From Eledone cirrhosa (taxonomy: Eukaryota), in assembly GCA_964016885.1 (NCBI GenBank), contig OZ024746.1:22940001-23004000 (forward strand): 64,000 nt of DNA, in the 5' to 3' direction. A program made the position numbers and the translations under genes. Positions 59,840 through 61,600 of the stretch are shown here, piece after piece; the first letter of the stretch is position 1, and the number at the start of each line of letters is the position of its first letter. A model generated the notes under the pieces. It was given only the letters and a program-made list of their open reading frames with translations, was not told the origin of the DNA and made no database searches.

Positions 59840-59856
59840 AAGTTTTAATATAGATG

Positions 59857-59907
59857 AGATTCTACAGGACTAGAAGTGTTTCATTCTTTAGAAATCATCA
59901 GGAATCT
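59857..59907 (-). ncRNA. Type I hammerhead ribozyme (inverted copy, one stem III mismatch)
   Basis: AGATTC-CTGATGA-tTTC taaa GAAt-GAAACAC ttctagtc CTGTA-GAATCT. Confidence 0.8.
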
Positions 59908-59908
59908 C

Positions 59909-59959
59909 AGATTCCTGATGATTTCTAAAGAATGAAACAGTTCTAGTCCTGTAGAATCT
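59909..59959 (+). ncRNA. Type I hammerhead ribozyme (family B)
   Basis: AGATTC-CTGATGA-tTTC taaa GAAt-GAAACAG ttctagtc CTGTA-GAATCT. Confidence 0.9.
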
Positions 59960-60677
59960 CATCTATATTAAAACTTTTATACTCTGCAATGTATTGAGTA
60001 CCTTACTTACTGTGGTTACCTCCGATTCAACCCGGAATAACGTACTTATATATATATATATATATATATATATATATATATATATATATATATATATATA
60101 TATATATATATATATATTGTACCAGGCACACAGACATACAGAGCAAAAGACAAAGACACATACTAAAAAATATGTATGCATATCTGTGAATGCGTGCACG
60201 TGTGTGTGCGCCCATTCATGTGTGTGTGTGAGTGCATGCACGCGTGTTTCTATGTGTGTCAATGAAACAGTTCCATAAATGTTTCATATATAAATCGGTG
60301 CGATTTGAGAAAAAGAAATATATATTTCTATATGTATATAATCCGTTGGAGAACAGAGACAGCAAAAAAGGAATAAATAAAAGGTGAATGGAAAATGTAA
60401 CTTAGTGCATTCGCTAGACTTCAATTACTCGTATGTGTGACTGTATGGCTACGTGCGTGTATGACTGTAGGCCCTCCACTTAAATCTCCAACTCCCCTCG
60501 CTATGTAGACACCTCCTTCAATTCATATATTAATTCTCTGTGTATCACTCTTTTACTCTTTTACTTTCTCTCTCTCTCTCTCTCTCTCTCTCTCTCTCTC
60601 TCTCTCTCTCTCTCTCTCTCTCTCTCTCTCTCTCTCTTTATATATATATATATATATATATATATATATATATATAT

Positions 60678-60838
60678 AACTAAGGCGGGTAAAATTCCCG
60701 AAATCCAAGGACGAGTTCTCTCCAGCGGTCTCTGTCCCTCATTATCGCTGCCATGTCCTGCATCTCCAACAGACCAGTGTCTGTCCTTAGGGCATCAACA
60801 TATGTTAACCTTGGTCTTTCTCTTCTAGTGTGTCCATA
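60678..60838 (-). mobile_element. RTE-type LINE extreme 3' end
   Basis: [42 protein letters not shown], between (TA)n tracts. Confidence 0.8.
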
Positions 60839-61211
60839 TATATTCTCTCTTTCTCTCTCTGTATATATATATATATATATATATATATATATATTATATA
60901 TATGCATATATATATATATATTATATATGCATATATATACATATATATATATATATATTATATATACATATATATATATATATTATATATGCATATATAT
61001 ACATATATATATATATATATTATATATACATATATATATATATATATATATATATATATATATATATATATATAATAAATGTAATCTGAGTTTTTCGAAT
61101 GTTAATAATAATATTCGATTCGTTTGAAATTATACAAACAAGCCTCATTTTTAGAGCCATGTCAGTAGAATGAGCCCCTCATTCTTGCTCTTGTGTTGGC
61201 ATGTAAACAGA

Positions 61212-61257
61212 ACTGCAGACACTAATGTTTCTGGATATCACCCTTCATCCGTATAGT
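61212..61257 (-). ncRNA. Mutated hammerhead motif
   Basis: ACTATA-CGGATGA(cf. CTGATGA)-A-GGGT gat ATCC-A-GAAACA ttag TGTC-TGCAGT. Confidence 0.6.
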
Positions 61258-61425
61258 TCACTGTTCACCTGCCAACTGAGCTAGTGAAAATATGATATTT
61301 TCTAAACTTTACGGTGACTGATCGGCCTGATTTGCATATTAGCAGACTGGTTGATCAGTCAGATCTGCATATTAGCAGATTCACTTATATATATATATAT
61401 ATATATATATATATATATATATATA

Positions 61426-61600
61426 AGTTTATCCCGTGTTCAATCGGGGGTAACCACAGTAAGTAAGGTACTCAATACATAGCAGAGTATAAATATTTAA
61501 TATAGAAATGGCTTCTACAGGACTAGAACTGTTTCATTCGGGAGAAACTATGGCTTCCTGATGATTTCTCCCGAATGAAGCCATTTCTATATTAAATATA
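61426..61600 (-). mobile_element. Family B element with a rearranged inverted HHR copy
   Basis: The minus arm carries the HHR 3' half plus tail; the plus arm TGGCTTC-CTGATGA-tttctcccgaat-GAAGCCA lacks helix III (deletion between two GAA). Confidence 0.8.

What the first reader, a model, noticed from the sequence alone, without database searches (positions are those of the whole stretch)
59840..61600. Family B shows compensatory stem I changes and a perfect head-to-head ribozyme pair
Seen: stem I is AGATTC/GAATCT at 59909 but GGCTTC/GAAGCC at ~61552, a double compensatory change. The helix II loop varies (taaa, tccc, cttc, ttac in the copies at 59.9, 61.5, 30.4 and 28.8 kb) while TTC/GAA and ACAG/CTGT are kept. 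At 59857-59959 two complete HHRs diverge from a 1-nt axis, so either strand's transcript carries a ribozyme and its antisense. This is the strongest internal evidence that the folds are under selection.
Basis: seen in the sequence. Interest (0 to 1): 0.72.

Follow-up and report, generated by a model that had tools for sequence, protein, structure and literature searches.

The report
Penelope stub with hammerhead ribozyme pair
The mirror-image pair is one of thousands of short back-to-back stubs of a Penelope-like jumping gene in this genome, likely a by-product of how the element inserts; its predicted self-cutting RNA fold shows matched changes in one stem between subfamilies, modest evidence that the fold was likely preserved in the parent elements.

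Summary
The palindrome centred on 59908 is real (68-nt arms) but has one mismatch, which breaks helix III of the minus-strand ribozyme. The 61.5-kb copy holds no complete hammerhead: its GGCTTC/GAAGCC comes from two broken arms.

All copies are pLTR ends of a Hydra-like Penelope retrotransposon (RT plus GIY-YIG) inserted in TA runs. The genome has 20,752 core matches and 8,580 close head-to-head matches.

Stem I compensation is real in untruncated genomic copies, at three pairs. It rests on about three lineage events, and mismatched stem I variants also occur in several copies. Helices II and III are invariant and do not covary.

The pair is not evidence of selection. The 5' ends pile up at the first bases of stem I, about 30 nt below a TATA box (24 of 66 short copies, 2.3 expected), not at the cleavage site. 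Both arms share the same loop variant in 33 of 33 pairs. The likely cause is two reverse transcriptions from one source running off the RNA start.

Inverted pLTRs and PLE hammerheads are published, and this scan noted the same start-site reading on other DNA of this genome. Cleavage and the start site are untested.

The parts
59909..60046 (+). Long arm: pLTR stub of the young subfamily, from the first base of stem I (-6, counting C3 = 59915 as 0) to the usual 3' end near +130
   Evidence: 100% identical copies on many contigs; same sequence precedes the ORF in L031-L033
59909..59959 (+). Type I hammerhead sequence: 6-bp stem I, CUGAUGA, U.U plus 3-bp helix II with 4-nt loop, GAAA, 4-bp helix III with 8-nt loop; predicted cut after 59953
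   Evidence: sequence; fold 3.4 kcal/mol above the MFE; no Rfam hammerhead hit
59908..59908 (.). Palindrome axis; equals native base -7 of the long arm
59840..59907 (-). Short inverted arm (-6 to about +61); hammerhead 59857-59907 with a G-to-C change at 59876 that breaks a helix III pair
   Evidence: +61 and +54 are the commonest short-arm ends, 33 of 50
59534..59839 (.). TA-rich run on the left of the insertion
60047..60117 (.). (TA)n run on the right of the insertion
   Evidence: 86 of 90 sampled copies end in such a run
61427..61547 (-). Long arm of an older (TCCC-loop) subfamily copy; starts at +7 and lacks CUGAUGA; 3' strand GAAGCC at 61510-61515
61552..61599 (+). Inverted arm of the same insertion; starts at -6 (GGCTTC) and lacks helix III and the cleavage site through a GAA-to-GAA deletion
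30274..30434 (.). Head-to-head copy with the axis inside the core; neither arm has an intact CUGAUGA; loop CTTC
28837..28880 (+). Fragment from +6 on, loop TTAC, no core 5' half
10205..10279 (-). Old diverged fragment of the same family

Best explanation
The two loci are short, promoter-less stubs of the terminal repeat of a Penelope-like retrotransposon sitting in TA runs, and the back-to-back pair likely forms when both ends of a cut target prime reverse transcription on RNA from one source element and both copies run off the RNA's predicted start at the first base of the hammerhead's stem I. Shown: the element and its ORF, the copy numbers, the pile-up of 5' ends at -7..-4, the TATA spacing, matching arms and three compensated stem I pairs. 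Inferred: the start site, twin priming, end-joining of the two cDNAs, and catalysis. The fold was likely kept by selection in the active parent elements; the genomic stubs decay neutrally. The ribozyme is predicted to be weak as a monomer (U.U at the base of helix II) and better as a dimer through the centred CUAG palindrome of loop III. Read-through RNA across the palindrome is predicted to form a long hairpin that abolishes the fold.
For: Element: a full unit with the hammerhead at both ends 4,612 nt apart and an ORF between them. Motifs seen by eye: RWR, DKT, YRDD, CxCx5C, GIY-YIG-like, CxxC and CxH; weak Pfam GIY-YIG hit, E 0.014. Abundance: 20,752 core matches, control 0; 8,580 strand-matches with opposed cores within 30 nt, control 0. 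5' ends: 24 of 66 short copies end at -7..-4 (2.3 expected) and 3 at the cleavage site (2.8 expected). TATAAA lies 35-37 nt above C3 in 110 of 116 rows where 30-42 was allowed. 0 of 30 copies of the 61.5-kb type keep the promoter. Arms: same loop II variant in 33 of 33 pairs, 13.8 expected at random; the short arm reaches at least 4 nt further 5' than the long arm in 14 of 42, the reverse in 5. Stem I among 82 older copies: -6/+44 has A.U 44, G.C 19, A.C 5, G.U 2; -4/+42 has C.G 66, A.U 5, C.U 3, A.G 2. Third pair: T at +43 in 22 of 29 GACATTC copies (hand count) against 3 of 89. Literature: a PLE protein cuts and extends both strands and has two RT start sites (PMC11167929, parts 1-2 of 4).
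Against: No run on record as RNA was listed, so the start site and cleavage are unobserved. The older long copies were picked by a TATA-containing pattern, so TATA conservation there is partly circular. No Rfam hammerhead family matched. The hammerhead fold is not the MFE and the single arm folds no better than shuffles (z -0.27). The canonical G10.1-C11.1 pair is absent. Covariation: pairs with a double change number 2 against 3.2 in shuffles (483 of 500 as high); -6 associates with non-partner +13 at p 1.5e-12, more strongly than with +44 at 1e-10. The downstream region +72..+99 is also nearly free of subfamily variants (1 of 28 columns), so invariance of helices II and III is not unique to the fold. 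Identical arms fit fold-back copying equally well. Pfam did not detect the RT.
Confidence: 0.65

Rival explanations
1. Fold-back or self-priming: one cDNA (or an antisense RNA, as proposed for rotifer PLEs) turns back on itself at the 5' end and copies itself, giving the palindrome from a single priming event.
For: Arms share the loop variant in 33 of 33 pairs. 23 of 42 pairs have 5' ends within 3 nt of each other. Self-priming is the published reading of PLE junction palindromes (PMC3846280 passages).
Against: In 14 of 42 pairs the short arm holds 5' sequence missing from the long arm, up to 76 nt; the 61.5-kb locus is such a case. Junctions often carry extra bases. Short arms end mostly at two fixed sites.
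Confidence: 0.22
2. The 5' pile-up is caused by stem I itself: the cDNA copy of stem I snaps back or the RT drops off after passing it, and no promoter is involved. Such copying could also perfect stem I without selection.
For: The hotspot coincides with the 5' strand of stem I and sits at -7 in the bulged ATAY-loop subfamily. A few copies (for example L439, L010) have upstream bases that mirror the sequence beyond the 3' strand.
Against: Snap-back on stem I predicts an inverted arm starting near +39, but 22 of 50 inverted arms start at -7..-3. TATA spacing fits a start at this base. Half-changed stems exist (C.U in 3 and A.G in 2 of 82 copies), which fits stepwise change.
Confidence: 0.1
3. 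One reading: the head-to-head pair is a functional two-way ribozyme switch kept by selection at this locus.
For: One arm is intact, and the hairpin is predicted to block the fold.
Against: Thousands of such pairs exist with scattered junctions. This one has no TATA box and its left arm already carries a helix III mismatch. The other three window loci named are broken.
Confidence: 0.03

Closest known systems
Hydra clade of C-terminal-endonuclease Penelope-like elements (PMC8557442, section 11 and passages read)
   Same: DKT, CxCx5C linker, CxxC and CxH in the endonuclease, hammerhead in the pLTR, (TA)n targets, inverted 5'-truncated copy
   Different: RWR instead of RWK; unit of 4.6 kb with a microsatellite-rich 3' region against under 3 kb; no RT tree was built here
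Hammerheads in PLE pLTRs (PMC4209133, parts 1-2 of 4 read)
   Same: [quoted passage not shown]
   Different: Not minimal: real 4-bp helix III, only 3-bp helix II, U.U in place of G10.1-C11.1; pairs here are mostly under 30 nt apart
Axolotl HHR_Amex2 retrozyme ribozyme (PMC7229834 passages)
   Same: U.U mismatch at the base of helix II; weak as a monomer, better as a dimer
   Different: Lies in 350-bp tandem retrozyme repeats; ours is the end of an autonomous PLE
Adineta vaga Pen families (PMC3846280 passages)
   Same: Inverted pLTR with one-sided tail, palindromes at the inverted junction, putative TATA and Inr in the pLTR
   Different: Explained there by self-priming on an antisense template; the passages read do not tie the junction to a start site
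Anolis PAc Poseidon element in vitro (PMC11167929, parts 1-2 of 4)
   Same: Hammerhead next to the ORF start; internal RT start sites; AT-rich targets; uncleaved RNA is the main template
   Different: Different clade; tail of 30-40 nt against about 70 nt between arm ends here

Membership tests
Type I hammerhead ribozyme | Core CUGANGA, GAAA and UH triplet in type I order | tested here: met
   59909-59959; no core column has a second allele in 9 or more of 89 copies picked by flanks only
Type I hammerhead ribozyme | Three helices supported by covariation | tested here: inconclusive
   Stem I: three compensated pairs. Helices II and III pair but show no double changes; 11 of 33 double mutants at one helix III pair are Watson-Crick, 11.9 expected (hand count)
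Type I hammerhead ribozyme | G10.1-C11.1 pair at the base of helix II | tested here: not met
   U.U in nearly all copies; a weakly active natural precedent exists
Type I hammerhead ribozyme | Match to an Rfam hammerhead model | tested here: not met
   None at gathering score over the window; none among 73 matches to E 10 in 59800-61700
Type I hammerhead ribozyme | Site-specific self-cleavage | not testable with these tools
   No assay; no RNA holder listed
Penelope-like element (EN+) | Single ORF with RT and C-terminal GIY-YIG | tested here: met
   ORF with YRDD (RT motif recalled) and GIY-YIG-like end; Pfam GIY-YIG E 0.014, below cut-off, and no Pfam RT hit; the copies seen are frameshifted
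Penelope-like element (EN+) | pLTR with hammerhead at both ends | tested here: met
   L033 plus L184: cores at 4461 and 9073
Penelope-like element (EN+) | Inverted 5'-truncated copy and one-sided tail | tested here: met
   50 of 90 sampled copies have an inverted arm by my score rule, most of them shorter at the 3' end
Hydra clade | DKT, CxCx5C, CxxC and CxH motifs | tested here: met
   Read by eye in the translations against the list
Hydra clade | RWK motif; CCHH absent | tested here: inconclusive
   RWR present; CCHH not seen by eye, no alignment made
Hydra clade | (TA)n targeting | tested here: met
   86 of 90 copies
Hydra clade | Generally under 3 kb | tested here: not met
   4.6-kb unit
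Hydra clade | RT phylogeny within the clade | not tested
   No reference proteins fetched; filed as Hydra-like
Non-LTR retrozyme | Head-to-tail 170-400-nt repeats without an ORF | tested here: not met
   Copies are solo or head-to-head and tied to an ORF

The most novel reading that the evidence does not exclude
The hammerhead doubles as a template-pairing signal. Its invariant loop III palindrome joins two element RNAs into a dimer, and a dimeric RT-endonuclease copies one RNA from each end of the cut target, producing the head-to-head stubs. The capped RNA begins exactly at stem I, so promoter, ribozyme and dimer contact form one 50-nt module.
Probability: 0.12. Interest if true: 0.7.

Novelty: new member of a known kind. 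Interest (0 to 1): 0.3.

Why it matters
The finding as posed is ordinary: PLE hammerheads, their compensatory changes and opposite-strand pairs are in print. The family is still a useful test bed for an open question, namely how PLEs make inverted insertions and what their hammerhead is for. Thousands of near-identical stubs record where reverse transcription began and ended. They show that templates were mostly uncut at the ribozyme site, ended at a predicted start site, and came from one source per insertion. These points can be tested in the existing in vitro PLE system.

Tried and rejected
Rfam gave no hammerhead hit; the miRNA-type hits only reflect the hairpin. RNA evidence: no RNA holder listed. 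Contigs of three runs of unknown kind show summed depth rising near -6 and falling after about +128 in two of them; this is no copy number and may be the assembly's own sample, so it is not used as support.

A splice acceptor at -5 was considered because the young subfamily has a T-rich tract ending in CAG. It was rejected because junctions share no upstream exon and the GGCTTC subfamilies have no AG there. Ribozyme cleavage as the source of 5' ends was rejected (3 of 66, 2.8 expected).

The search for TATA-linked hammerheads of other families was inconclusive (455 matches against 169 control, many of them family B variants). The tree on short non-stem columns was poorly resolved, and its parsimony counts include neutral decay, so no event count rests on it. 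Alignment A1 has two mis-cut rows (L410, L417) and no gap for bulged stems, so cannot see the third pair. An ORF in L018 first looked like part of the element but lies beside it. R-scape was not available.

Paper searches for Penelope + pLTR + transcription start + TATA (0 papers), twin priming + Penelope (3 listings) and Penelope + hammerhead + transcription start site (3 listings) gave no listing whose title or abstract start ties the junction to a start site. Those listings were not read further, and subscription papers are not searched. Supplements of the papers read were not opened; Craig et al. file S2 lists Hydra hammerheads and may hold this motif.

Full report
Numbering: the C of CUGAUGA (window 59915) is position 0.

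Observation. The palindrome is centred on 59908 with 68-nt arms and one mismatch at 59876/59940. That mismatch is position +25 of the minus-strand arm and makes a C.C clash in helix III; the hammerhead fold costs -0.3 against -4.2 kcal/mol for the plus arm. At 61.5 kb the plus arm has GGCTTC, the core and helix II, then jumps from one GAA to the next and loses helix III and the cut site. The minus arm has helix III and GAAGCC but starts at +7. The 30.4-kb and 28.8-kb copies lack an intact CUGAUGA. One of the named arms is an intact hammerhead sequence.

What it is. The 140-nt right arm has 100% identical copies on many contigs. Longer copies continue upstream into a shared region and sometimes downstream into an ORF. 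L033 with L184 gives a whole unit: hammerhead, ORF, microsatellite-rich 3' region, and a second hammerhead 4,612 nt on. The translations show RWR, DKT, YRDD, CxCx5C, a GIY-YIG-like motif, CxxC and CxH, which follows the Hydra description in PMC8557442 section 11. Pfam gave only a sub-threshold GIY-YIG hit and no tree was built, so I call it Hydra-like. The core pattern matches 20,752 times, the young 3' end 5,446 times, and opposed cores within 30 nt 8,580 times counting both strands, about 4,300-8,600 loci; all reversed-pattern controls were 0.

Where the copies end. I took 90 copies from the first listed places, all on contig C1 and chosen only by their 3' end. 24 extend beyond -40; their mapped ends are unreliable because the extension stops at subfamily indels. 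Of the other 66, 24 end at -7..-4 (2.3 expected if uniform) and 3 at +37..+41 (2.8 expected). 50 of 90 have an inverted arm by my score rule; 22 of these start at -7..-3 and 33 end at +54 or +61. 86 of 90 run into a TA tract. In long copies TATAAA lies 35-37 nt above C3 in 110 of 116 rows, where 30-42 was allowed. Three of the 116 rows (two of them among the 110) are false boxes from an inverted arm, the rows are related, and the older ones were selected by that motif. This places the first base of stem I about 30 nt below the box, the usual spacing to a start site (recalled). None of 30 copies of the 61.5-kb type keeps the promoter.

How the pair forms. In 33 of 33 young pairs outside the loci chosen for identity to the window copy, both arms carry the same loop II variant; 13.8 are expected at random. 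The arms therefore come from one source, or one master was active at a time. In 14 of 42 short pairs the short arm reaches at least 4 nt further 5' than the long arm, in 5 the reverse, and in 23 they lie within 3 nt. A short arm holding sequence absent from the long arm is hard to get by folding back on the finished cDNA. A PLE protein cuts and extends both target strands, starts at two internal RNA sites and mostly uses uncut RNA (PMC11167929). Twin priming with run-off at the RNA start is my preferred inference. Self-priming, as proposed in PMC3846280, remains possible.

Covariation. One search selected older copies by flanks outside the ribozyme (291 matches; 90 places fetched, 89 distinct). 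I dropped 5 with indels and 2 without a core match, leaving 82. Pair -6/+44: A.U 44, G.C 19, A.C 5, G.U 2, other 12. Pair -4/+42: C.G 66, A.U 5, C.U 3, A.G 2, other 6. Pair -2/+40 is C.A in 11. An older ATAY-loop subfamily has GAC, a bulged A, then TTC opposite GAAGTC: T at +43 in 22 of 29 (hand count) against 3 of 89. All three subfamily changes on the 3' strand are thus matched by the complementary change at the partner base.

Limits of the covariation. The association of -6 with +44 (p 1e-10) is matched by non-partner columns +13 (1.5e-12) and +59 (1.1e-10), so the p-values measure shared descent and the evidence is about three events. On alignment A1, 89.5% of cells pair and cells with double changes exceed all 500 shuffles, but pairs with double changes (2) do not, and helices II and III have none. 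Genome-wide, 11 of 33 double mutants at one helix III pair are Watson-Crick against 11.9 expected. A second allele in at least 9 of 89 copies occurs in 4 of 4 loop II columns, 7 of 18 spacer columns, 5 of 12 stem I columns, 0 of 11 core, 1 of 6 helix II (a CpG site), 0 of 8 helix III, 0 of 8 loop III and 1 of 28 downstream columns.

The ribozyme. No Rfam model matches, and the fold is 3.4 kcal/mol above the MFE. The base of helix II is U.U, as in the weakly active axolotl HHR_Amex2. Loop III is invariant and has a centred CUAG; the helix III segment forms a -12.8 kcal/mol self-duplex against a -1.4 hairpin, in line with dimer action proposed for PLE ribozymes. In RNA spanning the palindrome the hammerhead pairs have negligible probability. 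Activity is untested.

Prior knowledge and verdict. PMC4209133 already reports hammerheads in pLTRs, opposite-strand pairs and compensatory changes; PMC8557442 and PMC3846280 describe the inverted copy and tail. I reached the start-site reading before the look-up (note). Earlier notes of this scan give the same reading on other pieces of this genome; they are not independent support. Added here are the corrected state of the window copies, the limits of the covariation, the third pair and the arm-matching count. New member of a known kind; interest 0.3.

Noticed in passing
window 21868 (+), 62549 (+), 57147 (-), 40901 (-), 56341 (+): Other hammerhead-like cores with longer helix II, unrelated to family B; 57147 and 40901 are near-identical copies. 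Probably ends of other PLE families.
   Followed up: no
window 63463, 63685-63727, 30097, 30481, 27456, 40129: A second abundant repeat family, often palindromic, shares the 11-nt GTATTGAGTAC motif with family B's 3' part; a possible shared protein-binding or RT-start signal.
   Followed up: partly
L018:2-958 (-), L026:3-506 (-): ORFs of other, diverged Penelope-like families with similar RT or endonuclease motifs lie beside family B insertions.
   Followed up: no
L031 and L032 (G000:C2:16.67-16.69 Mb): Two near-identical full-length copies 8.5 kb apart, each among LINE-like ORFs; possibly a local duplication.
   Followed up: no
L439-L458 and bulged copies among L285-L374: A bulged base in stem I tracks the loop II type (A with ATAY loops, U with CTTC or CTTT loops, none with TCAC or TAAA); may reflect a tertiary contact or only shared descent.
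   Followed up: no
window 61319-61379: Two 28-nt direct repeats, the first with an ATTTGCAT octamer-like motif (name recalled), next to the TA run of the 61.5-kb insertion.
   Followed up: no
window 10001-16000, 30001-34000, 25870-26910: Strongly G/T-skewed blocks and an array with about 57-nt spacing; likely tandem repeats.
   Followed up: no
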